This document shows, in pieces, positions 10,527 to 39,543 of a stretch of DNA of 64,000 nucleotides. The DNA lies in the NCBI GenBank assembly GCA_034431195.1, contig DAOUDP010000016.1, forward strand, positions 1,839 through 65,838. The letters are read 5' to 3'. The notes beneath the pieces were generated by a model, which had not been told where the DNA came from, searched no databases, and was given only the letters and a program-made list of their open reading frames with translations. The DNA comes from Dehalococcoidia bacterium (GTDB lineage: Bacteria > Chloroflexota > Dehalococcoidia > GIF9 > AB-539-J10). The stretch's first letter is position 1; each line of letters begins with the position of its first letter. The position numbers and the translations under genes are program-made.

Positions 10527-10894
10527 TGTAGGGCATAGGCGTACCTCAACAGCGGCAGCGGCATCACCTGTTAAGAGGAGTTGGCTCATTTGACCCAGCT
10601 ATCTGTTGGCCGAATACCGCATGGCTTGGCTTAGGTTCTTGATGGTTGGCTCGTGTTAAGGCTTAGAAACGGATTGGACATTCCTCCCGTACGTGAGCAA
10701 AAGATAGAGGAGCTCAAAGTCTCATAGGTGGGCGGCTGAGTTTTCGCCTGTTTCATGGACAGGCCTAATGGGGGCTTGCCGGGCTGCATTTGAGGGCCCT
10801 TATCGGGGTGGGAAACAATCCTGGATGGCAAGAGGCAACCTAGTTTTTAATCGTTCCCAATCCACATCGCAGCAGGCACATAAGGATTGAGATC

Positions 10895-13348: not shown

Positions 13349-14088
13349 TTGAGATCCTCAGGGTCCATTGGCTGGTTGTTGTGGATTGTCCCGGCAATCT
13401 GGCCGTCGCGCAGGCGCACCACACGGTCGGCAATGGCGCCTATAGCGGAATTGTGAGTGACTACCACTACGACCTTTCCCTTCGTTTCGTTGAGCATCCT
13501 CAGCAGCTTGTAAATGCGTTTGCCTGTCTCGAAGTCCAGGGTGCCTGTGGGTTCATCACAGAGGAGAATCGGCGGGTCAGTGGCCAGGGCCCTGGCTATG
13601 GCCACTCGCTGGTTCTCGCCGCCCGACAGCTCGCTTGGGAAATGCTTCATGCGCTCTTCCAAGCCTACCTCGTGTAGTATCTCTTCAGCAGACCTGTGAT
13701 GCTTCACCAACTCAGCGGCGAACTCGACATTTTCCGTGGCGGTGAGGGTTGGAATCAGATTGAAGAACTGGAAGATGAAGCCGATTTGCGTGCGTCGAAA
13801 ATTGGTGAGCTGGGACTGGCTCAGTTTCGTGATGTCGGTGTCGTTGACTATAATGCGGCCTGAGGTGGGAGAGTCCAGGCCTCCAATCAGGTTGAGCAGC
13901 GTGGTCTTTCCAGAACCACTGGGCCCTAAGAAGACGATGAATTCTCCTGCCATCACCTCGAAGGTGACGTCTCTTAGCGCCGGTACGAGAATCTTGCCCA
14001 TCTGGTAGTTCCTGGAAACCTTTTCTAATTTGATTGCTGGTTTCCTGGAATTTTGCTTGGCTGTTACCAGTTCCGAGGCATCGGCCAT
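13342..14088 (-). CDS. ABC transporter ATP-binding protein (MacB/LolD-like)
   Basis: 248 aa; Walker [10 protein letters not shown], signature [15 protein letters not shown], Walker B LLCDEPTG. Confidence 0.85.
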
Positions 14089-14265
14089 CGACTGCTTTCC
14101 TTTGCTGTGCTATGTAGCCAGCGCATGCTGCTGGGTCATCGGATTGACATGATTGGCTCGCGCCACTTGCCTCTCCTTGTGCGGACACGGGAGATTTTCC
14201 TCCCAGCTCATCGGGCTATGTTAACGCCGTTGCTCTCAAGCTGTCAACGCTAGGTACGGGGCATT

Positions 14266-14830
14266 TCGTTCTGCAATTTCAACCAACGTCTCGTGCGTAT
14301 AGTTCTGGAAGAAACTTGGGAAATTGCTGCATTTCCTCTTTATTATGCTTGCGTAAAGCGCTGCGATAGAGCCGAGGCGTCTTTGCTGGGAGTCGAAATG
14401 TCGAGCGCATCTGCGTTCCGTAGGATTCCTCCTGATACTCGTGAACAAGCCAGGCGATGGGCACGTCGTCCTGACCGAGGATACTGGCTGCCACGACATG
14501 GCTTGTAGGGGAGGTTATCCTCTATGAAATCCTCGGCGCGGACATGGCGCGTATCAAGGACGAGCAGAGTGGCTTCGAGCTTCTGGAGCCTCGGGTCAAT
14601 CAATGAGAGCTTTCAATTCTGGGGACATAATACCCGAGTTAAATCTCCTCTACCTTGACGGGAGAGGATTAAGGTGAGGGTGTTAGATGCAGATGGACAC
14701 GTGTCGCAATAATATGGTTGGGTGTCATTGCGAGCCGAAGGCGTGGCAATCCAGGTGGCAGGGTATTCAATGGCATTTGAGAAATGATGCTTGATTTGTA
14801 GTAGGTCTGATTAGTATTGCGTTCCTAACC
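14266..14830 (+). repeat. Repeat block R3: module e + duplicated PPC 3' fragment + modules b, c, d
   Basis: 14266-14336 matches 7520-7590; 14493-14616 matches 7183-7296; 14617-14692 matches 6640-6716; 14723-14830 matches 7351-7458 and 6770-6835. Confidence 0.7.
14493..14616 (+). pseudogene. duplicated 3' fragment of the PPC/DUF296 gene (TTWLVGEVILYEILGADMARIKDEQSGFELLEPRVNQ*)
   Basis: In-frame copy of the last ~37 codons of gene 6844-7296 with about 8 substitutions; no upstream coding continuation. Confidence 0.6.
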
Positions 14831-14833
14831 ACA

Positions 14834-14870
14834 CGAGATTGCTTCGTCGCCTACGCTCCTCGCAATGACA
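14834..14870 (+). repeat. copy of the gagattgcttcg…ctcgcaatgaca hairpin repeat family
   Basis: Shares termini with 24926-24955, 27424-27485, 59261-59415 and the tgtcattgcgag copies in R2/R3. Confidence 0.6.
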
Positions 14871-14929
14871 GAAGGAGGCACGCGGCCTTTTGAGAAAGCC
14901 CATTTCTTGCTACAATTGAGCGCCGGGCA

Positions 14930-15158
14930 AATGAGGTACTTTCTAGGCGTCGATATCGGCTCTGTCAACGCCAAGCTGTCCCTCATCGATGAGGATGGCA
15001 GGGTTGTTCAGTTTGACGCTGAGAAAGTAAGCTCCAGCTCCAGGGCCACAGTCACTTCACTCATCGCTAGGCTAGGCGAGATATTCAATCTGGAACAGAT
15101 TGTCGCCGCAACCAATGAATTCAAGACTCCTCGGCCGGAGTCCCCCACCACTTCTTGA
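14930..15158 (+). pseudogene. N-terminal fragment of a BadF/BadG/BcrA/BcrD-type activase ATPase gene
   Basis: MRYFLGVDIGSVNAKLSLIDEDGRVV… parallels the N-terminus of gene 35153-36124 (MKGYLGVDVGSVTTKLALLDEHEQLI…). The frame collapses after ~60 aa and runs into rarA. Confidence 0.45.
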
Positions 15159-16464
15159 GCCTGGCGGCGATCTCCTTTTCATAACCCTGGTCGCCGGGGA
15201 GATAGTAGCGCTTTCCGTGAAGGGATGAGGGCAGGTTTTGCTGCTTGACAAAATGGCCAGGATAATCGTGGGCATATTTATAGCCCTTGCCATGTCCCAT
15301 CTGGCGCATCAAGCCAGTTACCGGGTTACGCAAATGCAGCGGCACTGGCTCGTTTCGGCCATGCTGTATATCTTCCTGAACCCGAGAATAAGCCTGGTAC
15401 AACGAGTTGCTTTTGGGAGCAGTTGCCAGATAGACCACGGCTTCAGCTAAAGCTAGATTGCCTTCAGGCAAACCCACAAAGTGCACTGCTTGCTGGGCAG
15501 TTACCGCTATTGTCAGGGCTTGTGGGTCAGCCATGCCCACATCCTCAGAGGCGAAGCGCACGAGCCGGCGGGCGATGTAGAGAGAGTCCTCACCGGCTTC
15601 AAGCATACGCCCCAACCAATACAAAGCAGCGTCTGGATCCGAGCCACGCAAGGACTTGTGGAGGGCCGAAATCAGGTCATAGTGCTGGTCGCCACTTTTG
15701 TCATACAGTAAAGCACGGTGCTGCAGCGCCTCCTCAATGGCCGGCAGGCCTATCGGGCGCCGCCCCTCGCTGTCAGGCAAAGTAGCAAATGTCGCCATCT
15801 CCAGGGCATTCAACGCTACCCGAGCATCTCCATTGGACATAGCCACCAGGTGTTTCACAGCCTCCTCAGCTATATCAACTTTGAACTCCCCCAGTCCCCT
15901 TTCCTCATCCTTAACAGCCCGCTCCACGATGACCTTGATTTCCTGGTCACTCAGCAGATTCAGCCAGAAGGTACGGCACCGAGAAAGGAGCGGCGCAATA
16001 ACCTCGAAGGAGGGATTTTCTGTGGTGGCCCCAATTAAAGTTACCGTGCCGTTTTCCACGAAAGGCAGTACAGCATCCTGCTGCGCCTTATTAAAGCGGT
16101 GAATCTCGTCAACAAAAAGAATTGTCCTCTGCCCCGATACCCTTAACCGTTTCCTGGCTTCACCGATAACATGTCGTAAATCGGCTACCCCAGCACTTAC
16201 CGCACTAAGAGGACTGAAGTAAGCCTTGGTGACACTGGCAATAATCTGGGCCAGAGTCGTTTTGCCACTGCCCGGCGGCCCCCACAAAATTATGGAGGGC
16301 AACTGGTCTGCTTCGATGCATTTGCGGAGCACGCGCCCTTCAGCAACTAAATGCTCCTGTCCCACAAACTCAGCAAAAGTCCGCGGGCGCACCCTTGCCG
16401 CCAGAGGCATGCTGCGAGGCAGATCATCTCCCTCAGGTAGATCAAAAAGAGGTAAATTCTCCAT
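15121..16464 (-). CDS. rarA: replication-associated recombination protein A (AAA+ ATPase)
   Basis: 447 aa; Walker A GPPGSGKTT, MgsA/RarA C-terminal domain. Confidence 0.85.
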   Translation of the reverse strand: MENLPLFDLPEGDDLPRSMPLAARVRPRTFAEFVGQEHLVAEGRVLRKCIEADQLPSIILWGPPGSGKTTLAQIIASVTKAYFSPLSAVSAGVADLRHVIGEARKRLRVSGQRTILFVDEIHRFNKAQQDAVLPFVENGTVTLIGATTENPSFEVIAPLLSRCRTFWLNLLSDQEIKVIVERAVKDEERGLGEFKVDIAEEAVKHLVAMSNGDARVALNALEMATFATLPDSEGRRPIGLPAIEEALQHRALLYDKSGDQHYDLISALHKSLRGSDPDAALYWLGRMLEAGEDSLYIARRLVRFASEDVGMADPQALTIAVTAQQAVHFVGLPEGNLALAEAVVYLATAPKSNSLYQAYSRVQEDIQHGRNEPVPLHLRNPVTGLMRQMGHGKGYKYAHDYPGHFVKQQNLPSSLHGKRYYLPGDQGYEKEIAARLKKWWGTPAEES

Positions 16465-29351: not shown

Positions 29352-29612
29352 CTATTCGTCTTTTATTCCATGGTCGCGAAGATAGTCAATGGCATTCTGA
29401 ACAGTCTTGATATTTTCGGCATCTTCATCAGGTATTTCCAGCCTGTTTGTAGGAGTGTTGAATTCCTCTTCCACTGCGGTAATAAGTTCGATTAGGTCCA
29501 GAGAGTCGGCATTCAGGTCCTCTGTGAAGGAAACTTCCGGGGTTACGTCGTTTTCATCAACCCCCAGTTGTTCTACAATGATTTCCTTTAATTTTTCAAA
29601 GATGGTTGGCAT
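29352..29612 (-). CDS. acpP: acyl carrier protein
   Basis: 86 aa; phosphopantetheine attachment site [20 protein letters not shown]. Confidence 0.8.
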
Positions 29613-30049
29613 TTTCCCTCCTTTCGTCGCTCATGGCTTGCTTTGCCATATTTGGTGACTATTGACCCTAATACGCCATTAATCAGACGTGGTGAAGAGT
29701 CACTGCCGAAAGTTTTAGCTAACTCTATTGCTTCGTTTATGGCTACCTTAACGGGTGTATTATTATCCATCAAAATTTCGAAGATGGCAACACGCAGGAT
29801 ATTCCTATCAATGACAGACATTTGCGCCACAGGAAAGGATGGAGCAAAACGCCCAATAACTTTATCAATCTTTGACTTATTTTTTAGCACACCTTGTACA
29901 AGTTTCTCAGTGAAGCTGATTGCTTCTTGAGACAGTGACTGTTCTGTTGTTGAGTGAATCACAGCATCTTCAGCTTTATGTTCAGTACAGTCAATTTCAT
30001 AAAGTGTTTGGAGAGCAGCGATTCTTGCCTTTCGTCTCAAGCTAGCCAT
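29588..30049 (-). CDS. nusB: transcription antitermination factor NusB
   Basis: 153 aa; [16 protein letters not shown] signature. Confidence 0.8.
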
Positions 30050-30050
30050 G

Positions 30051-30998
30051 TTATTCTGTTATTAAGTGGTTTGCCTTTAGCCGTGAGATTTCTTCAGTGC
30101 TCGATATGTTCAATGTTCGTAGCTCGGGATTAATCCGCTTAATCAATCCACTGAGTACCTTCCCTGGTCCTATTTCGTAGAATGTGGTTACTTTTTCTTG
30201 AGCCATGTATTCCACGGAATGTTGCCATCGGATGCAATTGGAAAGCTGGTTCAAAAGCTCTTCCCTTATATCAGCTACATTATCCAGTGGTTGGGCGGTT
30301 ACATTTGCTACTATAGGAGTTGTTGGTTGCTGAAATGTGGTGTTGGAGACAATCTCGCCGAATTCGTCAACAGCTGATCGCATCAAACTGGAGTGGAAAG
30401 CGCCACTAACCCTTAGTGGGATCTGACGAATACGCTTTGCCTTGGCTAGGTTGTTAGCTTTGTCTAAATTGTCTGTGCCGCCGCTGATCACAATTTGTCC
30501 CGGGCAGTTGATATTTGCAATGGTACATCCACTGTGGAGACATAAATCTTCAACGTCTTCCTTGCTAGCTCCCAGTATTGCTATCATCCCTCCTGGTTTC
30601 TTTTGTCCCGCCTGGTGCATCAATCTTCCTCTGTGCTGGACTAGCCGAACGGCATCAGTGATACTGAGCACGTCGGCAGCCACCAGGGCGGTATATTCTC
30701 CTAAGCTATGTCCGGCAACGAAGGCAGGGGAAGGAAGATGGTCATTGGCTGTTTCCTGAGCTGCCTTAAGGCAAGCAACGCTGGTTATCAATATAGCTGG
30801 CTGGACGTTGTCTGTTCTGGTTAATTCGTCATCTGGTCCTTCAAAGCATAGGCGCGAAAGGGGGAGACCTAAAGCATCGTCGGCTTCCTCAAAAATCTCC
30901 CTAGCCAAGGAGTAGCTATGATACAGGTCTTGCCCCATACCCACTTTCTGCGAGCCTTGGCCGGGGAAAATATAGGCTATCTTGAATGGTTCGGTCAC
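30051..30998 (-). CDS. fabD: malonyl CoA-ACP transacylase
   Basis: 315 aa; FPGQGSQKVGMG and active site GHSLGEY. Confidence 0.9.
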   Translation of the reverse strand: MTEPFKIAYIFPGQGSQKVGMGQDLYHSYSLAREIFEEADDALGLPLSRLCFEGPDDELTRTDNVQPAILITSVACLKAAQETANDHLPSPAFVAGHSLGEYTALVAADVLSITDAVRLVQHRGRLMHQAGQKKPGGMIAILGASKEDVEDLCLHSGCTIANINCPGQIVISGGTDNLDKANNLAKAKRIRQIPLRVSGAFHSSLMRSAVDEFGEIVSNTTFQQPTTPIVANVTAQPLDNVADIREELLNQLSNCIRWQHSVEYMAQEKVTTFYEIGPGKVLSGLIKRINPELRTLNISSTEEISRLKANHLITE

Positions 30999-31005
30999 GC
31001 GTTAG

Positions 31006-31200
31006 TTAACCTTTTGCTTTAGGTGCTTTGATTTCAATAACTTGCATATCACCATAACTACCGCAGGTGGGACAAACGTGATGAGCTAGCTTTGGGTTGT
31101 GACATTGCGGACAAATATCCAAGGTTGGTAAAGCTAGCTTAATATGGCTTCGCCGCTTACCCCTACGCGCCTTGGCATATTTGCTCTTAGGTAGAGCCAT
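31006..31200 (-). CDS. rpmF: 50S ribosomal protein L32
   Basis: 64 aa; MALPKSKYAKARRGKRRSH… with CxxC…CxxC zinc ribbon. Confidence 0.85.
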   Translation of the reverse strand: MALPKSKYAKARRGKRRSHIKLALPTLDICPQCHNPKLAHHVCPTCGSYGDMQVIEIKAPKAKG

Positions 31201-31669
31201 ATAATTTCATCTCCTTTATTCCAGCACAATCAGGCTGGCATAATGCTTTCATCGGTAGATTTAGCAAGATATATTGGCGTATCAACTCTCCTAAGTCAAG
31301 TACATGATTTTCATCGATAATCAAGCCTTCTGATTCTTGGCACAAATCGAGTGGCAAACCACTGGATATATCAATGGCGGGACGGACTTCCTCTTCAATG
31401 GCAAAATTTATGGGGTAAGGAAAGGCTTTTAGACAGCGGCTGCAAACAAGTTCCACTTGAACGTTTAAGTTACCACGAACTAAAATCCCTTGGCCAGTGC
31501 GAATTAGCGTTACTTTGCCCTTGATAGAACCTTCAGGTTGCTCTGCAATTATGGTGTCAATTTCATAGTTGCGGCTAGAGCCAACGGGGTCTTTCAGCAA
31601 TTGAGCTACGTTAATTGCTCCAGGCAAATGCCTTTCGTTGAGGTCTTCGACTTTCATCATTGTTATCAC
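31187..31669 (-). CDS. yceD: YceD/DUF177 family protein (large-subunit rRNA accumulation protein)
   Basis: 160 aa, conserved yceD-rpmF arrangement; CxxC…C near the middle. Confidence 0.65.
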   Translation of the reverse strand: MITMMKVEDLNERHLPGAINVAQLLKDPVGSSRNYEIDTIIAEQPEGSIKGKVTLIRTGQGILVRGNLNVQVELVCSRCLKAFPYPINFAIEEEVRPAIDISSGLPLDLCQESEGLIIDENHVLDLGELIRQYILLNLPMKALCQPDCAGIKEMKLYGST

Positions 31670-31700
31670 AACTTGTAGTGTAAATTAAAGGTAAAGTATA

Positions 31701-32897
31701 ATGACTAACTTAAGGAAGTTTCAAGCGGTGGAAGGGAAAGAATTAAAGGAGAAATTAAGGGCTGAACTAGAGATACGGCGCAGTGAATTAGTGCGACTGA
31801 GCCTGGATATTCATGATAATCCTGAGTTAGGCTTTCAGGAGGTAAAGGCGGCATCCTGGCTTAGCGATTACCTGAAGAGCAATGGGTTTTGCGTTGAACC
31901 GAATATTGCAGGGCTATCTACAGCCTTTCGAGCAGTATATGGTGAAGGGAAACCAAAAATTGTTGTGCTTGCTGAATATGACGCCTTGCCGGGAATCGGG
32001 CATGGTTGTGGACATAATATCATAGCAGCGTCGGCGGTTGGTGCTGGCATAGCTAGCAAGATTGTTGTAGATAATCTAGGAGGAAGCATCATAGTATTAG
32101 GCACGCCTGGTGAGGAGGATTTTGGTAGCAAAATAGATATGGTCAAGGCTGGCATTTTCGACGATGTGGATGTGGCTATGATGGTGCATCCCTCGATGCT
32201 AAACATGGCAATTTATCGGACGCTTGCCTGCCTATCGCTTGAGGTGGAATTTTTTGGCAAAGCAGTCCATGCTGCTGCTCAGCCAGCCGAGGGCGTAAAT
32301 GCTCTTGAGGCTATTATTCTCGCGTTTAACTCTGTAAATTCGCTGCGCCAGCACATAAAAGAACAGGCGCGCATTCATGGCATAATAACCGATGGTGGTG
32401 AGGCGCCCAATGTAGTGCCTGCCCATAGCGCTGCTAAGTTTATAATCCGTGCCCCTGACTATGCTTACCTAGAGGAGTTGCAAGGCAAAGTGCTAAACTG
32501 TTTTAAGGGCGCCTCTTTAGCCAGTGGCGCCAGACTAGAATATCGCTGGGGTGATAAAGTTTATGCTCCTATAAAGAATAATGTTGCTCTAGCTCAGCTA
32601 TTTAGCAATAATCTTGAATTAATGGGACGTCGTTTGGATGTTTTTGATCTACAAATTCCTTTTGGTAGTTCGGATATGGGAAATGTTAGCCAGGTGGTTC
32701 CTAGCATGCATCCCGTGGTCGCTATTGTCTCTCCCAAAGTTTCCTTACATTCGGCAGAATTTGCTTCCGCTGCTGCTTCTGAGGCTGGACACCAGGGGTT
32801 ATTAGATGCTGCTAAAGCAATGGCGATGACCATGGTTGATGTCATTGGACGCCCTGAGGTGTTGGAGAAGATTAAGCAAGAATTTCGTAGCTCTTAG
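31701..32897 (+). CDS. M20D family amidohydrolase (aminoacylase/hippurate hydrolase-like)
   Basis: 398 aa; metal ligands GHGCGHN, EEDFGSK, MVHP. Confidence 0.8.
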   Translation: MTNLRKFQAVEGKELKEKLRAELEIRRSELVRLSLDIHDNPELGFQEVKAASWLSDYLKSNGFCVEPNIAGLSTAFRAVYGEGKPKIVVLAEYDALPGIGHGCGHNIIAASAVGAGIASKIVVDNLGGSIIVLGTPGEEDFGSKIDMVKAGIFDDVDVAMMVHPSMLNMAIYRTLACLSLEVEFFGKAVHAAAQPAEGVNALEAIILAFNSVNSLRQHIKEQARIHGIITDGGEAPNVVPAHSAAKFIIRAPDYAYLEELQGKVLNCFKGASLASGARLEYRWGDKVYAPIKNNVALAQLFSNNLELMGRRLDVFDLQIPFGSSDMGNVSQVVPSMHPVVAIVSPKVSLHSAEFASAAASEAGHQGLLDAAKAMAMTMVDVIGRPEVLEKIKQEFRSS

Positions 32898-32900
32898 GCA

Positions 32901-33863
32901 ATGGTTACGGTAGGAATTCCACGGGCTTTACTTTATTACCAGTATTATCCCATGTGGAAGGTTTTCTTGGAGAAGCTGGGTGCGGAAGTAGTGGTATCAT
33001 CGCCAACCAACAAAAGCATATTAAACTTGGGCGTTACGCGAGGTGTTCAAGATACCTGCTTGCCGGTAAAGGTCTTCTTCGGACATGTCGTTTCTCTAGC
33101 CGATAAATGTGACTTTATGTTTGTCCCCGCTGTTACCAGTTTGGGTAAGAAGAGTTATAATTGCTCCAAGCTTATCGGTTTGCCCAATATGGCAAGAGCT
33201 TTAATTCCAGAATGTCCCCCTATTCTTGACCCGGAAATAAACTACGAGAGAGGACGCTATAATCTATACCGAAATATTTATGAGGTAGGACGCCATTTTA
33301 CCTGCAATCCATTCAAGCTTAAGAAGGCAGTGGAAGAAGCTTGGGCAAGCAATTTGGATTACCGAAATAAAATGTCTGATGAAGGGATTACACATTTTCA
33401 GGCTATTGATTGTAAGCCGCCTCCTGATGTGAAATCTTCTTCATTGACTATCGCTGTTATTGGGCATCCCTATATTATCTATGATGAATATGTTAGTCAT
33501 CGGCTCATTTCATGGCTGCAGAAGATGGAGGTCAAAGTTGTTACCCCGGAGATGGTATCTCAGGAGGAACTTGATGCTGCTACAAGAAGACTGGTGGGTG
33601 TTCCCCATTGGTCATTTGAATCTGAAATAATCGGCGCTGGAGAATATTACTTGGAAACGGGGGTAGATGGTATAATTATTGTCGCTGCTTTCGGATGTGG
33701 TCCTGACTCAATGATGCTAGGCATGGTGCAACATCGGACAAAAGAGTTTGAGATTCCTCTTTTACCGCTTAGTCTGGATGAGCATAGTAGTGAAGGAGGG
33801 TTGCTTACTCGATTAGAGGCTTTTCTAGATATGGTTAGGCGGAGGAAAAGAGTATGCGTATAG
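32901..33863 (+). CDS. acyl-CoA dehydratase activase-related protein (DUF2229 domain), component 1
   Basis: VGIPRALLYYQYYPMWKVFLEKLGAEVVVSSPTNKSIL…TCLPVKVFFGHV matches DUF2229 (CoA-enzyme-activase uncharacterised domain); CGPDSMM motif. Confidence 0.6.
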   Translation: MVTVGIPRALLYYQYYPMWKVFLEKLGAEVVVSSPTNKSILNLGVTRGVQDTCLPVKVFFGHVVSLADKCDFMFVPAVTSLGKKSYNCSKLIGLPNMARALIPECPPILDPEINYERGRYNLYRNIYEVGRHFTCNPFKLKKAVEEAWASNLDYRNKMSDEGITHFQAIDCKPPPDVKSSSLTIAVIGHPYIIYDEYVSHRLISWLQKMEVKVVTPEMVSQEELDAATRRLVGVPHWSFESEIIGAGEYYLETGVDGIIIVAAFGCGPDSMMLGMVQHRTKEFEIPLLPLSLDEHSSEGGLLTRLEAFLDMVRRRKRVCV

Positions 33864-34957
33864 GATTTCCTCATTTTGGTAACGTTTATATTGCACTAAA
33901 GGCTGTAGCAAGAAGACTCGAATCTCCTGGGGATGCGCTAATAACTCCACCCCCGATGACTCAACACACATTGGACCTTGGAGTTAAATACTCACCAGCG
34001 GAGGCTTGTTTACCCTATAAGCTTACTTTAGGTAGTCTGATTGAAGCTTGCGAGCTGGGGGCAGACAGTCTAATTCAAGCCAGGGGGACTGGGATTTGCC
34101 GTTTAGGTTATTATGCCAAAGGTCAGGAACAAATGCTTCGTGACTTGAACTATGCTGCTCATTTTTTGACCGTTGATATATCTCACCACAAGCTTATAGG
34201 CATTATGCGACTTATGAGGGATGTAACTCATAATCGCACTTGGCATGAAATTATTTCATCATTTTTCTTTGCTATCGGTAAGTTATCTGCGTTAGATAGA
34301 ATAGAAAAAGTGGTTCACAAAATACGGGCAGTGGAGCTTGAGAAAGGAACAGCTAGCCGAATTTACCGCAAGGCTATCACCTCTATCGATGAGGCAATGA
34401 CTGGTAAAGAAGTCAAGGAATTAACTAAAGAATATATCGAGAAATTAAACCGAGTGCCTAAAGACATCACTGCTGAGCCACTCAAAGTAGGCATTGTCGG
34501 GGAGATTTATGTTGTTATAGAGCCTTTCGCTAATATGGATATAGAAATAGAATTGGGCAAATTAGGAATAGAGGTAGAGCGGACCTTGACTCTTTCTCGG
34601 TGGGTTAAATATAGTCTGTTTCTTAACTACCTTGGTCTAGACGAATGGAGAAAAGTTCATAAATTAGCTCATGCTTATCTCGACCATGATATTGGTGGTG
34701 ATGGTTGGGAATCAGTAGGGGAGAAAGTGCTTTATGCTCGCAACGGATTTGATGGCATAATCCATCTAGCCCCTTTCACCTGTATGCCAGAGATAGTAGC
34801 TGAGAATATCATGCCATCGACAAAGGAAGATATACCCATGCTTGCTGTTACTTGCGATGAGCAGCAGAGCAAACAAGGGATGTTAACCAGACTTGAGGCT
34901 TTTACAGACTTAATAAGCTTTAGAAGGCGAAGAAGGGAGCATGGGAGAAGAATTTGA
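33854..34957 (+). CDS. DUF2229-type protein, component 2 (paralogue of preceding gene)
   Basis: IGFPHFGNVYIALKAV…ACLPYKLTLGSL parallels the N-terminus of gene 32901; C-terminal …LAPFTCMPEIV. Confidence 0.55.
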   Translation: MRIGFPHFGNVYIALKAVARRLESPGDALITPPPMTQHTLDLGVKYSPAEACLPYKLTLGSLIEACELGADSLIQARGTGICRLGYYAKGQEQMLRDLNYAAHFLTVDISHHKLIGIMRLMRDVTHNRTWHEIISSFFFAIGKLSALDRIEKVVHKIRAVELEKGTASRIYRKAITSIDEAMTGKEVKELTKEYIEKLNRVPKDITAEPLKVGIVGEIYVVIEPFANMDIEIELGKLGIEVERTLTLSRWVKYSLFLNYLGLDEWRKVHKLAHAYLDHDIGGDGWESVGEKVLYARNGFDGIIHLAPFTCMPEIVAENIMPSTKEDIPMLAVTCDEQQSKQGMLTRLEAFTDLISFRRRRREHGRRI

Positions 34958-35150
34958 GATATTAGACAAGCTTGTCAAAAGTAAACAGATGATAGTATTC
35001 TTTATTTTTATGAGCATCATTTCAATTTTATTTCACCCTCTGCTAAAGTTAAGACAAAGAAAAGCGTTAGAACTCGAAGAGAGCATAAGAGCTTTCAATC
35101 GGAGTAAACTAGAAAGCTTTGGAGGGACTTCTCTTAAAAAGGTAGACTAG
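34941..35150 (+). CDS. small hydrophobic protein (hypothetical)
   Basis: 69-aa track ORF with one TM helix, between the DUF2229 genes and the activase. Weak support. Confidence 0.2.
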   Translation: MGEEFEILDKLVKSKQMIVFFIFMSIISILFHPLLKLRQRKALELEESIRAFNRSKLESFGGTSLKKVD

Positions 35151-35152
35151 AT

Positions 35153-36124
35153 ATGAAGGGCTATCTTGGCGTTGATGTTGGTTCAGTCACCACAAAATTA
35201 GCTTTGCTTGATGAGCATGAGCAGCTTATAGCTTCTATTTATTTGCGAACTCGAGGTAATCCGGTAGACATGGTGAAACAGGGGTTGAGGGAAATACAGA
35301 AGCAAATATCGCCTGAAGTCGAGGTTAGCGGGGTAGCCACTACTGGAAGTGGTCGTTATCTAGCTGGCGTGCTTGTTGGTGCTGATTTGGTAAAGAATGA
35401 GATCACCACTCATGCTGTTGCTGCCACACAACAGATACCTGATGTGCGAACAATTTTTGAAATAGGCGGACAGGATAGCAAGATTATCATAATTCATGAT
35501 GGTGTGGTCATTGATTTTGGCATGAACTCGGTGTGTGCTGCTGGGACGGGGAGTTTCTTGGAACATCAAGCGGAAAGGTTGAATGTGAAGATTGAGGATT
35601 TTGGGGGGCATGCTTTGAGGAGTAAGAATCCAGCGCGTATTGCTGGGCGGTGCACTGTTTTTGCTGAATCAGATATGATTCATAAGCAGCAACTGGGATA
35701 TCCTCTCGATGATATTATCTATGGTTTATGTCAATCCTTAATACGCAATTATCTTAACAATGTTGCTTTAGGCAAGGAAATTCAGCCTAGATTGGTGTTT
35801 CAGGGGGGTGTCGCTTTCAATAAAGGGATAATCAGGGCATTTAACGAGGTTTTCGACTCCGAAGTTTATGTACCGCCTCACAATGAGCTTATGGGCGCTA
35901 TAGGAGCTGCTATTCTGGTGCATGAGGAAATGGAAATTAAGCAAAATCATCATAAGAGTAAGTTTAAGGGATTCGGTGTCAGCGACATAGAATTCAAGAC
36001 TTCTTCTTTCATATGCAAGGCTTGCCCGAATTTATGTGAAGTTTCCCAAATTTCTGCTGATGGTAAAGTTTTGGCCAGGTGGGGAGGGCGTTGTGATATG
36101 TGGGAGAGAGTTCCAGAAAGCTAG
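35153..36124 (+). CDS. BadF/BadG/BcrA/BcrD-type ATPase (CoA-substrate-specific enzyme activase, HgdC-like) with Cys-rich C-terminal extension
   Basis: 323 aa; LGVDVGSVTTKLALLD and IGGQDSKII actin-fold ATPase motifs; C-terminal CKACPNLCEVSQ…GGRCDMWE. Confidence 0.75.
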   Translation: MKGYLGVDVGSVTTKLALLDEHEQLIASIYLRTRGNPVDMVKQGLREIQKQISPEVEVSGVATTGSGRYLAGVLVGADLVKNEITTHAVAATQQIPDVRTIFEIGGQDSKIIIIHDGVVIDFGMNSVCAAGTGSFLEHQAERLNVKIEDFGGHALRSKNPARIAGRCTVFAESDMIHKQQLGYPLDDIIYGLCQSLIRNYLNNVALGKEIQPRLVFQGGVAFNKGIIRAFNEVFDSEVYVPPHNELMGAIGAAILVHEEMEIKQNHHKSKFKGFGVSDIEFKTSSFICKACPNLCEVSQISADGKVLARWGGRCDMWERVPES

Positions 36125-36136
36125 TCTCCTTCGTGT

Positions 36137-37057
36137 ATGGCTAAGAAGTATCAATTGATCGTCGTTGGTGGTGGTCCTGCAGGGCTTACTGCGGGGTTTT
36201 ACAGCGCCAGAGCGGGATTCACGGTGTTGCTCATCGAAAAGGAAGTAATCGGTGGGCAAATTGCCAATGCTGAGCGGGTAGACAACTATCCTGGTTTCCC
36301 CAAAGGTATTTCTGGATTTGAGTTAGTACAGCTTATCCAGCAGCAAGCTATGAATCATGGATTGGAAACTATGTCGGGTGAAGTTACTGGATTAACATCC
36401 GGTTATGGTAACAACATGGTTATCACCACTGAAGGTGATTTTATAGCTCAAGCGGTGATCATCGCTGGGGGATTGCAATTTCGTAAATTGGAAGTGCTTG
36501 GTGAAAATGAATTTATGGGCAGGGGAGTTTCTTATTGTGCTACTTGTGATGGTCCTTTATTTCGAGACAAAACAGTGGCGGTAATTGGGGGCGGCGATAC
36601 CGCTCTTACTGATGCTCTTTCTTTGAGCAAATTTGCTTCTTTGGTTAAGGTTATCCATCGCCGTAATCAATTGCGAGCAGGCAAGGTATTACAGAGAAAA
36701 GCACAAGCTGATCCCAAAATAGAGTTTATATGGGACAGTGTGGTGACCGAAGTAAAAGGAGAAAAAAAAGTCACCGATTTAGTGCTTAAAAATACCCAAA
36801 ATGGTACAATATCACTGTTAGCCGTAGATGGTGTTTTTGTTGCCATTGGACTAATTCCTAATACCGAATATCTGCGTGGAGTTTTGCCTCTGGATGAGTG
36901 GGGGTACATAGTCACTACCGAGCTGATGGAGACAACAGTGCCTGGTATATTTGCGGCGGGTGATATTCGCCATAACTCGGTGAAGCAAGCGATAGCTGCT
37001 GCTGGAGATGGTGCTGTTGCTGCGTTATCAGCAGAGAAGTTCGTTGGTTCGCTATGA
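36137..37057 (+). CDS. trxB: thioredoxin-disulfide reductase
   Basis: 306 aa; GGGPAG FAD motif and redox-active CATCDG. Confidence 0.9.
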
Positions 37058-37506
37058 AAGTTATCTTCTTAACGGACGTTCCCTCAAAAGGGCAGGCAGG
37101 GGAGATAAAGGTGGTAAGCGATGGGTATGCACGAAACTTCCTTTTCCCCAGAGGACTGGCTCAAGTAGCAACACCTGAGGTAATAAAACGAGCCGAAATC
37201 GGTCTCCGGAAGAAAATGACTGAAGAAAGCTCGAGCAAGGAAGAGATGGCCAAGTTGGCTAAGCAAATTGAAGGAATTCAGATCTGCTTCAAGGCTCGTG
37301 TAGGCGCTGAAGACCGTCTCTTCGGTTCTATCACTGAGGCTAATATTGCTGAAGAACTCAGCAGAATTGTAGATGCTCCTATCGATAAGAGGCAAGTGGT
37401 TTTGGATAATGCATTACGGCAAATAGGTGAATATGAGATAGCTATTAGATTGGCTACAGATTCGGTAGCGCGAATCAAGGTAGTTATCGAGCCTGAAAAA
37501 GCTTGA
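37054..37506 (+). CDS. rplI: 50S ribosomal protein L9
   Basis: 150 aa; [36 protein letters not shown]. Confidence 0.85.
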
Positions 37507-38894
37507 AAATGATAGAAGAAAAGTTACCCCCTCATGATATTGAGGCAGAAGAAGCAGTAATTGGCTCCTTGGTTGTTGACCCTGATGCTATATTTAAGAT
37601 AGCGACCTTCCTTGTTCCTGAGGACTTTTTTGATGAAACTAACCAAGTAATTTATCAGGCATGTCTATCCGTTCACCAACGCAATGAAGTTGTAGACCAG
37701 ATTACAGTAGCTCATGAGTTAATGCGACAAAACAGGTTAGAGCAAATTGGTGGAGCTGCTTATTTGAGCCATTTAATATCCATTACACCTACACCGCTCT
37801 ATGTTGAGCATTATGCTCGGATAGTATCCAATGCAGCAGCAATGAGACGATTAATTGCTGCTGCGGGACAGATTGCTGCTATCGGATATGAGGCGGGTGC
37901 TGATGTTGAGTCCACTCTCAATAAAGCTATAGACATCCTCTTTCAAGTAGGAAGTAAGGGGGCACCAACGAATTTAGTCTTGGTTCGTGATATCCTGAGC
38001 AAGTATTTTGAGGAAGTGGGGCAACCTCCACTAGGGGGGAAGCAAATACCCCATATTTTAACTGGCTTTGCTGGGTTGGACGGATTATTAGGTGGCTTGC
38101 AAAGGTCGGATTTAGTCATTTTGGCTGCAAGGCCAGCAGTTGGAAAAACGAGTTTAGCCTTGAATATCGTTAGAAATACTGCTATCGAGCAGAAGGCTTG
38201 TGTTGCCCTTTTTAGCCTGGAGATGTCTCGGGATACAATTGTTCAGCGTCTTTTGTCCTCTGAAGCGAGGGTGGATTCGAAGGATGTTCGTTTAGGGCAT
38301 TTTACTGAGAGAGAAGAAAGAAGGATTATGGATGCTAGTGGAGTTTTGTCAGAGGCACCAATTTATATTGATGATAGCCCTCAGCAACGTGTTGTGGATA
38401 TAGGAAGTAAGGCAAGACGTCTTCATCGTGAGCGTAACATCGACTTGATTGTTATTGATTATCTGCAATTGATGCGAGGTGATGGTAAGAATGAACCCCG
38501 AGTTCAAGAGATAGGCAACATAACCCGTTCCTTAAAAGGGTTGGCTAGGGAATTGAATGTACCTGTGCTCACAGTGTCTCAACTTAGCCGTGCCGTGGAG
38601 TGGCGTGCCTCTCATAAACCTCAGCTCTTCGACCTGCGAGAGAGCGGTAGTATTGAGCAAGATGCTGATGTTGTATTTTTTATCCACAGAGAATCTATGT
38701 ATTGCGAAGAGGAAGAATGGTATAGAACACACGATGTGGAGAAAGAGCCCTATCCTCGCAATGAGGCCGATATTCTTGTTGAAAAGCATCGAAATGGTCC
38801 TCTGGGTATAGTGAAATTGCGTTTTCTCCCATGGTTCTCTCGATTTGATAATGTAGAAGTAGTGCCAGCCCCTAGTTCTGAGGAGTTATTGTAA
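37503..38894 (+). CDS. dnaB: replicative DNA helicase
   Basis: 463 aa; Walker [10 protein letters not shown] and Walker B IDYLQLM. Confidence 0.9.
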
Positions 38895-38895
38895 C

Positions 38896-39543
38896 ATGAC
38901 AAGAAAACCTTTTCCTGCCTCTCCAGAGGAGCAATTTGTCCTTCTGCCCGAATCGTTTTTCACTCAGGGGATACCTGAAATAGACGATATAGCCGAGCTG
39001 AAGGTGAGTCTCTGTTTTTTCTATTTACTCCATCATAAGCAAGGACATCATGAGTTTATCACCCATGGGGAATTGTTGTCTTATTGTATTCCAGTTATGG
39101 GGAAACAAGGGTTCGACAGCGGCTTAAGGTCAGCTGTGGAAAGGGGGGTCATTTTATCGGTTAGTAAAGAGGTTAACGGGAGGCGGGAAAACGTTTACTT
39201 TGCTAACAAGGAGGCTATGGACAGGGCGAGCCATGGGATAATTCCTAAACAAGCAACACAGCCGCTCAATATCTTTGCTCTTTATGAGCAGAATATAGGT
39301 TTGATAACCCCATTGGTTGCTGAGGAGCTTAAAGAGGCGGTGAAAGTTTATCCAGCGCAGTGGATAGAGGAAGCTTTCAGGGAAGCGGTTAATATGAATA
39401 AGCGTAGTTGGAAATATATCTCTCGTATTCTTGAGAGATGGGCTAGCGAAGGTAAAGATAGTGGAGAGTATAGACAAGGTATTAAGAAGGGCAGTGCCAA
39501 TAAGTACATTAAGGGCAGATACGGGCATCTCGTCAAAAGATAA
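38896..39543 (+). CDS. DnaD-domain protein (helicase-loading/primosomal accessory)
   Basis: C-terminal …LVAEELKEAVKVYPAQWIEEAFREAVNMNKRSWKYISRILERWASEG matches the DnaD/DnaB C-terminal (DDBH2) domain consensus. Confidence 0.55.
   Translation: MTRKPFPASPEEQFVLLPESFFTQGIPEIDDIAELKVSLCFFYLLHHKQGHHEFITHGELLSYCIPVMGKQGFDSGLRSAVERGVILSVSKEVNGRRENVYFANKEAMDRASHGIIPKQATQPLNIFALYEQNIGLITPLVAEELKEAVKVYPAQWIEEAFREAVNMNKRSWKYISRILERWASEGKDSGEYRQGIKKGSANKYIKGRYGHLVKR

What the first reader, a model, noticed from the sequence alone, without database searches (positions are those of the whole stretch)
31701..36124. Uncharacterised DUF2229 x2 + HgdC-like activase cluster downstream of an M20D amidohydrolase
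Two paralogous DUF2229 proteins with overlapping starts/stops (32901-33863, 33854-34957) are followed by a tiny TM ORF and a single-domain BadF/BadG/BcrA/BcrD ATPase with an extra Cys-rich tail (CKACPNLCEVSQ…GGRCDMWE). In other bacteria these domains are fused into large 'CoA-substrate-specific enzyme activase' proteins whose substrate and chemistry are unknown. The split three-gene form here is tightly coupled to an M20D amidohydrolase upstream and thioredoxin reductase downstream. That hints at an ATP-driven reductive/dehydratase-type system acting on an amino-acid-derived substrate.
Basis: partly seen in the sequence, partly recalled or inferred. Interest (0 to 1): 0.55.

Follow-up and report, generated by a model that had tools for sequence, protein, structure and literature searches.

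The report
Split three-gene plasmalogen-synthase-like enzyme
An uncultured Dehalococcoidia bacterium encodes, as three separate small genes, the same modules that other anaerobes fuse into the oxygen-sensitive enzyme that makes ether lipids (PlsA/PlsR, Ger); this split form is widespread and untested, and published ether-lipid gene screens would probably miss it.

Summary
In detail: two paralogous DUF2229 proteins (A, B), a 69-aa membrane ORF and a single BcrAD_BadFG ATPase with a 4-Cys tail sit where stated. [quoted passage not shown] HMMs built from the split family map one-to-one onto those proteins: A = Red1, B = Red2/PlsR, ATPase plus tail = Act2. All cluster cysteines are invariant and shared. 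These are 3 in A, 3 in B, 2 bridging in the ATPase and 4 in the tail. The A-B-ATPase trio is an autonomous module in Chloroflexota, Actinomycetota and Clostridia. M20D and TrxB adjacency is confined to Dehalococcoidia and looks like synteny in a tightly packed housekeeping array. Lipid genes recur beside the trio in five arrangements (fabD/acpP, plsX, fabD/fabG, acpP, cardiolipin synthase). Most likely it is an ATP-driven, Fe-S radical reductase that converts glycerolipid esters to ether bonds. Identity to the fused proxy proteins is only about 25%, Bacillota are reported to carry both forms, and nothing has been tested, so the substrate remains inferred. It is a new variant of a known kind, of moderate interest.

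The parts
32901..33863 (+). Subunit A (320 aa): DUF2229 plus a C-terminal HGD-D motif. It is the counterpart of the Red1 module (C-terminal part of PlsA). Predicted 3-Cys [4Fe-4S] site at C53, C88 and C266.
   Evidence: PF09989 4e-53. The three Cys are invariant in 82/82 family members and conserved in Listeria Red1. The A-family HMM hits Red1 of Listeria, Collinsella, Haliovirga and Fusobacterium PlsA at 118-133 bits over its full length. AF2 model pLDDT 93.9. Best PDB folds are HadB/C, DCCP, BzdNO and MbdON, at TM 0.5-0.6 and 10-15% identity.
33854..34957 (+). Subunit B (367 aa): a divergent DUF2229 paralogue. It is the counterpart of Red2/PlsR. Predicted 3-Cys [4Fe-4S] site at C52, C82 and C310.
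   Evidence: PF09989 9e-10. The three Cys are invariant in 74/74 and conserved in Listeria Red2. The B-family HMM hits Red2 of the fused proteins and the separate Fusobacterium PlsR-like protein at 49-69 bits. BLAST to Fusobacterium PlsR gives 22% identity, E 2e-13. Natural A-B fusions of about 700 aa are common in Chloroflexota, and one models as a single compact unit with pTM 0.88.
34941..35150 (+). 69-aa ORF with one predicted transmembrane helix. It is a lineage-specific insert between B and the ATPase and may be a membrane anchor.
   Evidence: Hydrophobic stretch at residues 17-35; 58% identical homologues at the same position only in L004-L006 and L012. No comparable ORF in the other lineages. 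No family hit.
35153..36124 (+). Activator ATPase (323 aa): a single ASKHA BcrAD_BadFG domain that probably works as a homodimer. C128 and C167 are the predicted ligands of a bridging [4Fe-4S] cluster.
   Evidence: PF01869 2e-48 and TIGR00241 193 bits. PDB relatives: MbdQ 1e-38, HadI 7e-37, HgdC 7e-34. C128 aligns with HgdC Cys127. C128 and C167 are invariant in 63/63 and present in every Act domain of the fused proteins tested.
35918..36121 (+). C-terminal tail of the ATPase (residues about 256-323) with the motif C-x2-C-x3-C...C (C288, C291, C295, C314). This is a predicted extra metal or Fe-S site, and it is a signature of the Act2 domain of PlsA-type proteins.
   Evidence: The four Cys are invariant in 63/63 trio ATPases. 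They are present after Act2 of the Listeria fused protein but not after Act1. The ATPase-family HMM aligns through the tail (to HMM positions 314-321) with Act2 of Listeria, Collinsella, Haliovirga and Fusobacterium, but only to about position 260 with Act1. The matches to the solved activators HgdC, HadI and MbdQ (269-276 aa chains) end at query residues 259-266, before the tail.
31701..32897 (+). M20D amidohydrolase, a neighbour in the same gene array. Probably not part of the system.
   Evidence: TIGR01891 210 bits. Closest solved relatives are HmrA (3ram, 5e-80) and Xaa-Arg dipeptidase (7yh4, 7e-72). Adjacent to the trio only in Dehalococcoidia.
36137..37057 (+). Thioredoxin reductase TrxB, a neighbour. 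Probably housekeeping.
   Evidence: TIGR01292 362 bits, with a CATC motif. In 13 Dehalococcoidales loci plsX lies between it and the ATPase, often with thioredoxin as well; it is absent in others. It is followed by rplI and dnaB.
29352..31669 (-). Divergent acpP-nusB-fabD-rpmF-yceD block (fatty-acid/phospholipid synthesis neighbourhood).
   Evidence: ORFs. The same families (NusB, Acyl_transf_1, Ribosomal_L32p, YceD) are annotated in the syntenic loci L001-L005, and acpP is found in L012 and L014.

Best explanation
The genes at 32901-36124 encode a fully split, three-subunit version of the DUF2229-type HAD/BCR-superfamily radical enzyme. [quoted passage not shown] Proposed mechanism: the stand-alone ATPase dimerises around a [4Fe-4S] cluster bridged by C128 and C167 of each monomer. 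It is reduced by ferredoxin or flavodoxin, possibly through the 4-Cys tail site. It then uses ATP hydrolysis to inject a low-potential electron into the A/B heterodimer, whose two subunits each hold a 3-Cys [4Fe-4S] cluster. There the carbonyl of a glycerolipid acyl ester is reduced through a ketyl-type radical, then dehydrated or further reduced, to give a vinyl-ether (plasmalogen) or alkyl-ether bond. The 69-aa membrane ORF may tether the complex to the membrane in this lineage. Shown here: module-by-module homology, the conserved cysteines, the autonomy of the trio, and the lipid-gene neighbourhoods. Inferred: cluster types, the electron donor, the ATPase homodimer, and above all the lipid substrate and the product.
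For: Published function of the fused proteins: PMC13159169, PMC8788747, PMC9702350, PMC12838417. One-to-one module correspondence: ATPase = Act2 including the tail (215-257 bits), A = Red1 (118-133 bits), B = Red2/PlsR (49-69 bits) in Listeria, Collinsella, Haliovirga and the two-gene Fusobacterium locus. All 12 candidate ligand Cys are invariant in 63-82 orthologues and shared with the Listeria PlsA(R) orthologue. C128 aligns with HgdC Cys127. The C266 motif aligns with the conserved Cys motif of HadC and DCCP. A has the fold of HAD/BCR/DCCP catalytic subunits. A natural A-B fusion models as one compact unit, pTM 0.88. The trio is conserved as a unit in about 60 of 85 loci across Chloroflexota, Actinomycetota and Firmicutes. 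Lipid genes recur next to it in five different arrangements. (1) acpP-nusB-fabD-rpmF-yceD lie divergently upstream in the window's lineage. (2) plsX lies directly after the ATPase in 13 Dehalococcoidales loci (TIGR00182, 341 bits). (3) rpmF-fabD-fabG lie upstream in an Anaerolineae MAG. (4) acpP lies directly upstream in 6 Actinomycetota MAGs (TIGR00517). (5) Cardiolipin synthase lies directly upstream in 4 Clostridia (TIGR04265, 381-401 bits). The named cultured carriers are anaerobic genera, which fits an oxygen-sensitive enzyme.
Against: Identity to the Red modules of the fused proxy proteins is only 22-25% (E 1e-10 to 1e-27). I could compare only with orthologue proxies, not with the experimentally tested C. 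perfringens, E. faecalis or T. maritima proteins. Bacillota are reported to carry fused PlsA/Ger plus additional homologues lacking the activation domain whose role the authors call unclear (PMC13274423). Coexistence suggests the functions are not identical. There is one ATPase domain where the fused enzymes have two. In 14 Firmicutes loci the trio follows spoIIA-spoVA, and in 5 it precedes spmA/spmB. Other contexts have no lipid genes at all (L095, L096, L007, L010, L016). No lipid data exist for Dehalococcoidia carrying it, and no cultured Dehalococcoides or Dehalogenimonas homologue appeared among the hits.
Confidence: 0.55

Rival explanations
1. The trio is a paralogous DUF2229-type radical enzyme with the same machinery but a different, non-ether-lipid substrate, for example another ester, thioester or small molecule. 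In Firmicutes it may have a sporulation-linked role.
For: Only 22-25% identity to the Red1/Red2 modules. Coexistence with fused PlsA/Ger in Bacillota, with an 'unclear role' (PMC13274423). Placement after spoIIA-spoVA in 14 Firmicutes loci and before spmA/spmB in 5. Variable contexts elsewhere.
Against: Five distinct lipid-gene adjacencies in three phyla. Dehalococcoidia, Anaerolineae and Actinomycetota are not known to form spores (my own knowledge), so a sporulation function cannot be general. Signature features, namely the 4-Cys tail of Act2 and the Red1/Red2 pairing, are shared specifically with PlsA-type enzymes.
Confidence: 0.28
2. The enzyme acts earlier in lipid synthesis, on an acyl thioester or acyl phosphate (acyl-ACP, acyl-phosphate), and not on a finished phospholipid. 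It would supply a reduced acyl species for ether or other unusual lipids.
For: acpP lies immediately upstream of A/A-B in 6 Actinomycetota MAGs, and plsX (acyl-ACP to acyl-phosphate) immediately downstream of the ATPase in 13 Dehalococcoidales. The solved HAD/BCR relatives act on thioesters (CoA substrates in 3o3n and 8s02).
Against: No direct evidence. Cardiolipin synthase adjacency points to complete phospholipids. The characterised relatives convert diacyl lipids directly (PMC9702350).
Confidence: 0.1
3. One reading: a reductive/dehydratase system working with the M20D amidohydrolase and TrxB on an amino-acid-derived (2-hydroxyacyl-CoA-like) substrate.
For: Very tight spacing or overlap of M20D with A across 19 Dehalococcoidia loci. 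The activator is HgdC/HadI-like.
Against: M20D and TrxB adjacency is absent outside Dehalococcoidia. A and B are not HgdA/B-type: HGD-D matches only 64 residues of A and none of B. No CoA-transferase or 2-hydroxyacid dehydrogenase was found in the parts of the window and related loci that I annotated. The M20D protein is a dipeptidase type. The whole array continues into rplI and dnaB with equally tight spacing.
Confidence: 0.05

Closest known systems
PlsA-PlsR anaerobic plasmalogen synthase (C. perfringens CPE1194/1195, Q8XL48/Q8XL47; single-gene fused forms in E. faecalis EF1327/Q835P9, Listeria, Lactococcus, Bifidobacterium)
   Same: The same four kinds of module with the same cysteines: a BcrAD_BadFG activator with two bridging Cys, the 4-Cys tail after Act2, Red1 (DUF2229 + HGD-D C-terminus, 3 Cys) and Red2/PlsR (3 Cys). 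The order Red1 then Red2 is kept.
   Different: All modules are separate genes. There is one ATPase domain where PlsA has Act1 + Act2, and it is encoded downstream and not N-terminally. Red-module identity is 22-25%. This lineage adds a 69-aa membrane ORF. The product has not been tested.
Ger, glycerol ester reductase (T. maritima Tmari_0479/AGL49404; D. alkenivorans SHJ90043)
   Same: The same Pfam domain set, described as BBDHDDH (PMC13159169). It is active only anaerobically, which fits the anaerobic cultured carriers of the trio.
   Different: Ger is a single polypeptide with two activation domains and makes saturated alkyl ethers. The authors state that sequence alone cannot currently separate Ger from PlsA (PMC13274423), so it cannot do so for this trio either. 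I had no Ger sequence for a direct comparison.
2-Hydroxyacyl-CoA dehydratases with their activators (HadBC-HadI 3o3m/4eht; HgdAB-HgdC 1hux)
   Same: A three-protein layout: two paralogous catalytic subunits plus a separately encoded HgdC/HadI-type activator. Best structural matches for A (E 6e-9) and a strong sequence match for the ATPase core (7e-37 and 7e-34).
   Different: A and B are 10-15% identical to HadB/C at TM 0.5-0.6. HGD-D matches only the last 64 residues of A. No CoA-transferase or dehydrogenase partner genes were found. The ATPase carries an extra 4-Cys tail beyond the region that matches HgdC and HadI.
Double-cubane cluster protein DCCP with DCCP-R (6eno, 7yyl)
   Same: An ATPase-driven reductase of the same superfamily. 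The C-terminal Cys motif aligns (profile E 5e-7) and the fold matches.
   Different: NF040772 scores 13.7 bits against a cutoff of 350. A and B each have only 3 invariant Cys, which from my own knowledge of DCCP looks too few for a double-cubane [8Fe-9S] cluster.

Membership tests
PlsA/PlsR/Ger (DUF2229-type HAD/BCR ether-lipid enzymes) | BcrAD_BadFG activation domain with the two cluster-bridging cysteines | tested here: met
   PF01869 2e-48. C128 and C167 are invariant in 63/63 and present in all Act domains of the fused proteins tested. C128 aligns with HgdC Cys127.
PlsA/PlsR/Ger (DUF2229-type HAD/BCR ether-lipid enzymes) | Red1 module: DUF2229 with a C-terminal HGD-D motif and three conserved Cys | tested here: met
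   A: PF09989 4e-53 plus PF06050 31 bits. The A-family HMM hits Red1 of four PlsA-type proteins at 118-133 bits. C53, C88 and C266 are 82/82 and conserved in Listeria Red1.
PlsA/PlsR/Ger (DUF2229-type HAD/BCR ether-lipid enzymes) | Red2/PlsR module paired with Red1, with three conserved Cys | tested here: met
   The B-family HMM hits Red2/PlsR at 49-69 bits. C52, C82 and C310 are 74/74 and conserved in Listeria Red2. A-B fusions exist and model as one unit.
PlsA/PlsR/Ger (DUF2229-type HAD/BCR ether-lipid enzymes) | 4-Cys segment following Act2 (my own observation on the proxies, not a published criterion) | tested here: met
   C288, C291, C295 and C314 are invariant in 63/63 and present after Listeria Act2. 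The HMM alignment runs through the tail in four PlsA-type proteins. Absent in the divergent Paraclostridium fused protein.
PlsA/PlsR/Ger (DUF2229-type HAD/BCR ether-lipid enzymes) | Two tandem activation domains fused N-terminally to Red1 (BBD... architecture conserved in confirmed alkyl-ether producers, PMC13159169) | tested here: not met
   A single 323-aa ATPase encoded as a separate gene downstream of A and B. The same holds in about 60 related loci.
PlsA/PlsR/Ger (DUF2229-type HAD/BCR ether-lipid enzymes) | Homology thresholds used in published screens (E <= 1e-50 with >= 30% query coverage; or E <= 1e-30 and > 30% identity) | tested here: not met
   Against proxy orthologues (Listeria, Collinsella, Haliovirga, Fusobacterium): A 24-25% identity, E 1e-19 to 1e-24; B 22-24%, E 1e-10 to 1e-13. 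The ATPase is 33-37% identical at E about 1e-53 to 1e-58 but covers only about 22% of a fused protein. Not tested against the actual reference sequences, which were unavailable.
PlsA/PlsR/Ger (DUF2229-type HAD/BCR ether-lipid enzymes) | Converts an sn-1 acyl ester of a glycerolipid into a vinyl or alkyl ether | not testable with these tools
   Needs anaerobic heterologous expression and lipid analysis. Only indirect support here, from the lipid-gene neighbourhoods.
2-Hydroxyacyl-CoA dehydratase (HgdAB/HadBC/FldBC/LcdAB) | Both catalytic subunits match the HGD-D model (PF06050) over most of their length | tested here: not met
   A matches only profile positions 277-341 of 342; B has no match. 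Foldseek identity to HadB/C is 13-14%.
2-Hydroxyacyl-CoA dehydratase (HgdAB/HadBC/FldBC/LcdAB) | Partner genes for substrate activation (CoA-transferase, 2-hydroxyacid dehydrogenase) in the cluster | tested here: not met
   None among the annotated ORFs of the window or of the related loci examined. Not every window ORF was scanned against Pfam.
Class I benzoyl-CoA reductase (BcrABCD/BzdNOPQ/MbdNOPQ) | Two distinct ATPase subunits plus two catalytic subunits that reach the NCBIfam equivalog cutoffs | tested here: not met
   One ATPase gene. TIGR02259, TIGR03192 and TIGR02261 score 73-116 bits against cutoffs of 313-578. A is 10-13% identical to BzdNO/MbdON.
Double-cubane cluster protein (DCCP/DCCP-R) | NF040772 equivalog match, and enough Cys ligands for an [8Fe-9S] cluster | tested here: not met
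   13.7 bits against a cutoff of 350. Only three invariant Cys per subunit.

The most novel reading that the evidence does not exclude
The split trio is not just a disassembled plasmalogen synthase but a distinct lipid-modifying enzyme. It could make a different ether bond (for example sn-2 or cardiolipin-specific) or reduce acyl-ACP/acyl-phosphate. It would be the sole ether-lipid route in Dehalococcoidia, Anaerolineae and uncultured Actinomycetota. Those abundant anoxic-sediment and euxinic-water bacteria would then be major, so far uncounted sources of non-isoprenoid ether lipids used as geochemical biomarkers.
Probability: 0.18. Interest if true: 0.7.

Novelty: new variant of a known kind. 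Interest (0 to 1): 0.45.

Why it matters
Bacterial ether lipids (plasmalogens, alkyl glycerol ethers, brGDGT precursors) are used as environmental and palaeoclimate biomarkers, yet many of their producers in anoxic settings are unknown. Published gene screens use the full-length fused Ger/PlsA as the query with coverage or identity thresholds. The Black Sea survey lists Ger homologues in many phyla but not in Chloroflexota, although Dehalococcoidia and Anaerolineae reach up to 30% of reads in the euxinic water. By the numbers, a split system at about 25% identity would fall below those thresholds. If the trio is active, Dehalococcoidia and several other uncultured anaerobic lineages join the list of candidate ether-lipid producers. 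The recently noted 'activation-domain-less PlsA homologues of unclear role' in Bacillota would also gain an explanation: their ATPase is a separate neighbouring gene. Three small separate subunits should also be a more tractable preparation for mechanistic work than a 1,400-aa fusion, including work on the undescribed 4-Cys tail.

Tried and rejected
1. Ordinary 2-hydroxyacyl-CoA dehydratase, class I benzoyl-CoA reductase and the double-cubane protein: rejected on model scores and Cys counts.

2. Functional coupling to M20D and TrxB: rejected on phyletic distribution.

3. Promoter and terminator scans of 31000-39000 were at chance level (18 found against 15.1 expected; 9 against 6.6) and gave no operon boundaries.

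4. An NJ tree of the Red modules failed: the first run timed out and the second saturated at this divergence. I replaced it with family-HMM scoring.

5. Jackson et al. 2021 (PMC7812594) is not held. The supplements of the Sci Adv paper are not held, and Table S7 of the Bacillota paper was not captured. I therefore could not get the reference PlsA/PlsR/Ger sequences or the published PlsA motifs. I used Listeria, Collinsella, Haliovirga and Fusobacterium orthologues found in mis-filed 'plasmid' records.

8. A search for small membrane ORFs inside the operon in other lineages found none.

9. Neither plsX nor trx is in the window.

10. No paper links Dehalococcoidia to these genes, and none uses the NCBI product name. 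The only other mention of DUF2229 is a speculative assignment as an 'acyl-CoA reductase'.

Full report
**Observation**

A (32901-33863, 320 aa) matches PF09989/DUF2229 over the whole model (4e-53). It also matches PF06050/HGD-D, but only on its last 64 residues (31 bits). B (33854-34957, 367 aa) is a weak DUF2229 match (9e-10, best stretch N-terminal). The 323-aa protein at 35153-36124 is a single BcrAD_BadFG/TIGR00241 ATPase. The flanking genes are an M20D amidohydrolase (TIGR01891) and a bona fide TrxB (TIGR01292). A overlaps B by 10 nt, B overlaps the 69-aa ORF by 17 nt, and the other junctions are 2-12 nt. The same spacing continues through rplI, dnaB and the dnaD-like and dnaC-like genes. 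Tight packing is therefore the local norm. The rest of the window that I annotated is ordinary core chromosome: DAHP synthase, Fe-S assembly genes, aspartate kinase, GroEL, H+-PPase, FeoB and others. Named close relatives are Dehalococcoidia or Chloroflexota MAGs.

**What the fused proteins are**

Proteins with two BcrAD_BadFG domains followed by DUF2229/HGD-D modules are the anaerobic plasmalogen synthase PlsA, which works with PlsR or is fused to it. They also include the glycerol ester reductase Ger, which converts sn-1 ester bonds of membrane lipids to alkyl ethers. Both were shown by anaerobic expression in E. coli (PMC13159169; PMC8788747; PMC9702350; PMC12838417). The modules are called Act1, Act2, Red1 and Red2.

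**Relation of the window's genes to those enzymes**

I could not obtain the reference sequences. However, a tblastn against annotated 'plasmid' records, some of which are mis-filed chromosomes, returned several useful proteins:
- the Listeria monocytogenes fused protein (1,475 aa); Listeria is cited as carrying plsA/plsR orthologues
- a Collinsella fused protein (1,479 aa, with a TetR gene beside it)
- a Haliovirga fused protein (1,449 aa)
- a two-gene Fusobacterium locus (975 aa + 404 aa)
- a divergent Paraclostridium protein (1,282 aa)

BLASTP and HMMs built only from the split family give a clean one-to-one map:

| Window protein | Module in PlsA-type proteins | HMM score | Identity |
|---|---|---|---|
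| ATPase, including its tail | Act2 | 215-257 bits | 33-37% |
| ATPase core only | Act1 | 108-161 bits | 28-34% |
| A | Red1 | 118-133 bits, full length | 24-25% |
| B | Red2 / PlsR | 49-69 bits | 22-24% |

**Cofactor sites**

In 63 trio ATPases, C128 and C167 are invariant and are shared by every Act domain tested. C128 aligns with Cys127 of HgdC; from my own knowledge, Cys127 and Cys166 are the ligands of the dimer-bridging cluster in HgdC.

It is also present after Act2 of the Listeria protein, but not after Act1. The matches to the solved activators HgdC, HadI and MbdQ end before it. It is thus a signature of PlsA-type Act2 domains and not a peculiarity of this organism. None of the papers I could read mentions it.

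A has three invariant Cys (C53, C88, C266; 82/82) and B has three at equivalent positions (C52, C82, C310; 74/74). All six are conserved in Listeria Red1 and Red2. From my own knowledge, three Cys per subunit is the pattern of the HAD alpha/beta [4Fe-4S] clusters. The C266 motif aligns with the conserved Cys motif of HadC and DCCP.

**Structure**

An AlphaFold model of A is confident (pLDDT 93.9). It matches only catalytic subunits of the HAD/BCR/DCCP superfamily, at TM 0.5-0.6 and 10-15% identity. A-B fusions of about 700 aa are common in Chloroflexota MAGs. One of them models as a single compact two-module unit (pLDDT 88.3, pTM 0.88) with the same superfamily matches.

**Distribution and neighbourhood**

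The A family has 2,852 representatives at 50% clustering. The best 150 are almost all stand-alone proteins of 300-350 aa or A-B fusions of 700-770 aa. A scan of species genomes returned 80 loci. They come from Dehalococcoidia, Anaerolineae, Chloroflexia, uncultured Actinomycetota and many anaerobic Clostridia. Cultured species among them include Pelotomaculum propionicicum, Caloranaerobacter azorensis, Alkaliphilus peptidifermentans, Anaerovirgula multivorans and Caldanaerobacter subterraneus.

A-B-ATPase is the conserved unit, with B-A-ATPase order in some Chloroflexota.

M20D is upstream only in Dehalococcoidia (19 loci). It is an HmrA / Xaa-Arg-dipeptidase type M20D. TrxB is downstream only in Dehalococcoidia. 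In 13 Dehalococcoidales loci plsX lies between it and the ATPase, often with thioredoxin as well. I read both as lineage-specific synteny and not as functional coupling.

Lipid genes, by contrast, recur next to the trio in five different arrangements:
1. acpP-nusB-fabD-rpmF-yceD lie divergently upstream in the window and its closest relatives.
2. plsX (TIGR00182, 341 bits) lies directly after the ATPase in 13 Dehalococcoidales.
3. rpmF-fabD-fabG-asp23-nusB lie upstream in an Anaerolineae MAG.
4. A bona fide acpP lies directly upstream of A or A-B in six Actinomycetota MAGs.
5. Cardiolipin synthase (TIGR04265, 381-401 bits) lies about 60 nt upstream of A in four Clostridia.

Several points count against a simple story. 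In 14 Firmicutes loci the trio follows spoIIA-spoVA, and in five it precedes spmA/spmB. Several loci have no lipid genes at all.

**Mechanism and confidence**

I am about 90% confident that this is a split, three-subunit homologue of the PlsA/PlsR/Ger machinery. In that reading, an ATPase dimer injects low-potential electrons into an A/B heterodimer with two 3-Cys clusters.

That its substrate is a glycerolipid ester and its product an ether bond is inferred from homology plus neighbourhood. I put the whole statement at 0.55. The main rival (0.28) is a paralogue with another substrate. It is supported by the 22-25% identity and by the report that Bacillota carry fused PlsA/Ger together with extra 'activation-domain-less' homologues of unclear role (PMC13274423). 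My data show that these homologues typically have their ATPase as the next gene. An acyl-ACP or acyl-phosphate substrate (0.10) is suggested by the acpP and plsX adjacency. The M20D-linked amino-acid reading is unlikely (0.05).

**Novelty and interest**

The kind of enzyme is known and NCBI already names the proteins 'acyl-CoA dehydratase activase(-related)'. The split single-ATPase architecture is uncharacterised. It fails the architecture and homology thresholds used in published Ger/PlsA screens. Consistent with this, Chloroflexota are not listed among Ger-bearing phyla in the Black Sea survey, although they are abundant there. I class it as a new variant of a known kind, with interest 0.45.

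Noticed in passing
L004 11258-12178 and L005 (same gene): The trxB orthologue downstream of the trio carries two in-frame TGA codons (codon 47, where the window protein has Arg, and codon 245). They are identical in contigs from two different samples. TGA also ends normal genes nearby. This is either a conserved pseudogene or local read-through/recoding.
   Followed up: partly
L039, L042, L045, L046, L054, L061, L075, L077, L082, L085, L087, L089, L090, L091 (upstream of A): In 14 Firmicutes genomes a ~510-aa GerXA-like (SpoVAF-type) gene lies directly upstream of the trio. In about 9-11 of them spoIIAB, sigF, spoVAD and spoVAC/AE-like genes lie further upstream. A TrpB-like PLP enzyme and lysA often follow. 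This hints at sporulation-linked expression.
   Followed up: partly
L007 8469-9421; L044, L060, L081, L086 (downstream of the ATPase): A pair of Gate-domain proteins of about 150 aa (SpmA/SpmB-like spore maturation proteins), followed by an HD-domain protein in four of the five, lies right after the trio in Tissierellia-like Clostridia.
   Followed up: partly
L007 3923-5293; L037 4467-5909; L081 4435-5922; L086 4178-5656: A conserved 456-495 aa, highly charged, apparently helical soluble protein lies immediately upstream of A in four Clostridia. It has no Pfam or NCBIfam match.
   Followed up: no
window 10001-16000: GC content is 53-56% against about 45% elsewhere. The stretch includes a MacB/FtsX-type ABC exporter (10895-13348 and 13342-14088, minus strand) and MgsA, and may have been acquired horizontally.
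   Followed up: no
L020 (JAUWGI010000006.1): The record is titled 'Deltaproteobacteria bacterium'. It nevertheless has the full Dehalococcoidales synteny (M20D-A-B-ATPase-plsX-trx-trxB-rplI-dnaB) at 53-66% identity. The MAG is probably mis-binned or mislabelled.
   Followed up: no
L016 5343-6008: A truncated TrpB-like gene (only the first ~180 residues align, 58% identical to the Pelotomaculum protein) overlaps the start of A in a Dehalococcoidia chromosome. The same TrpB-like gene lies just downstream of the trio in seven Firmicutes loci.
   Followed up: partly
L011 4192-8040 (Paraclostridium bifermentans): This is a 1,282-aa fused Act1-Act2-Red1 protein. Its Act2 lacks the 4-Cys tail, and its C-terminal region lacks the Red2 cysteines. 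It sits next to an ABC transporter and cupin genes, and is a divergent subfamily of unknown role.
   Followed up: no
window 31669-31701: The divergent yceD and M20D genes are separated by only 31 nt as called, against about 150-190 nt in related loci. Either the GTG start of yceD is over-extended or the promoters lie inside coding sequence.
   Followed up: no
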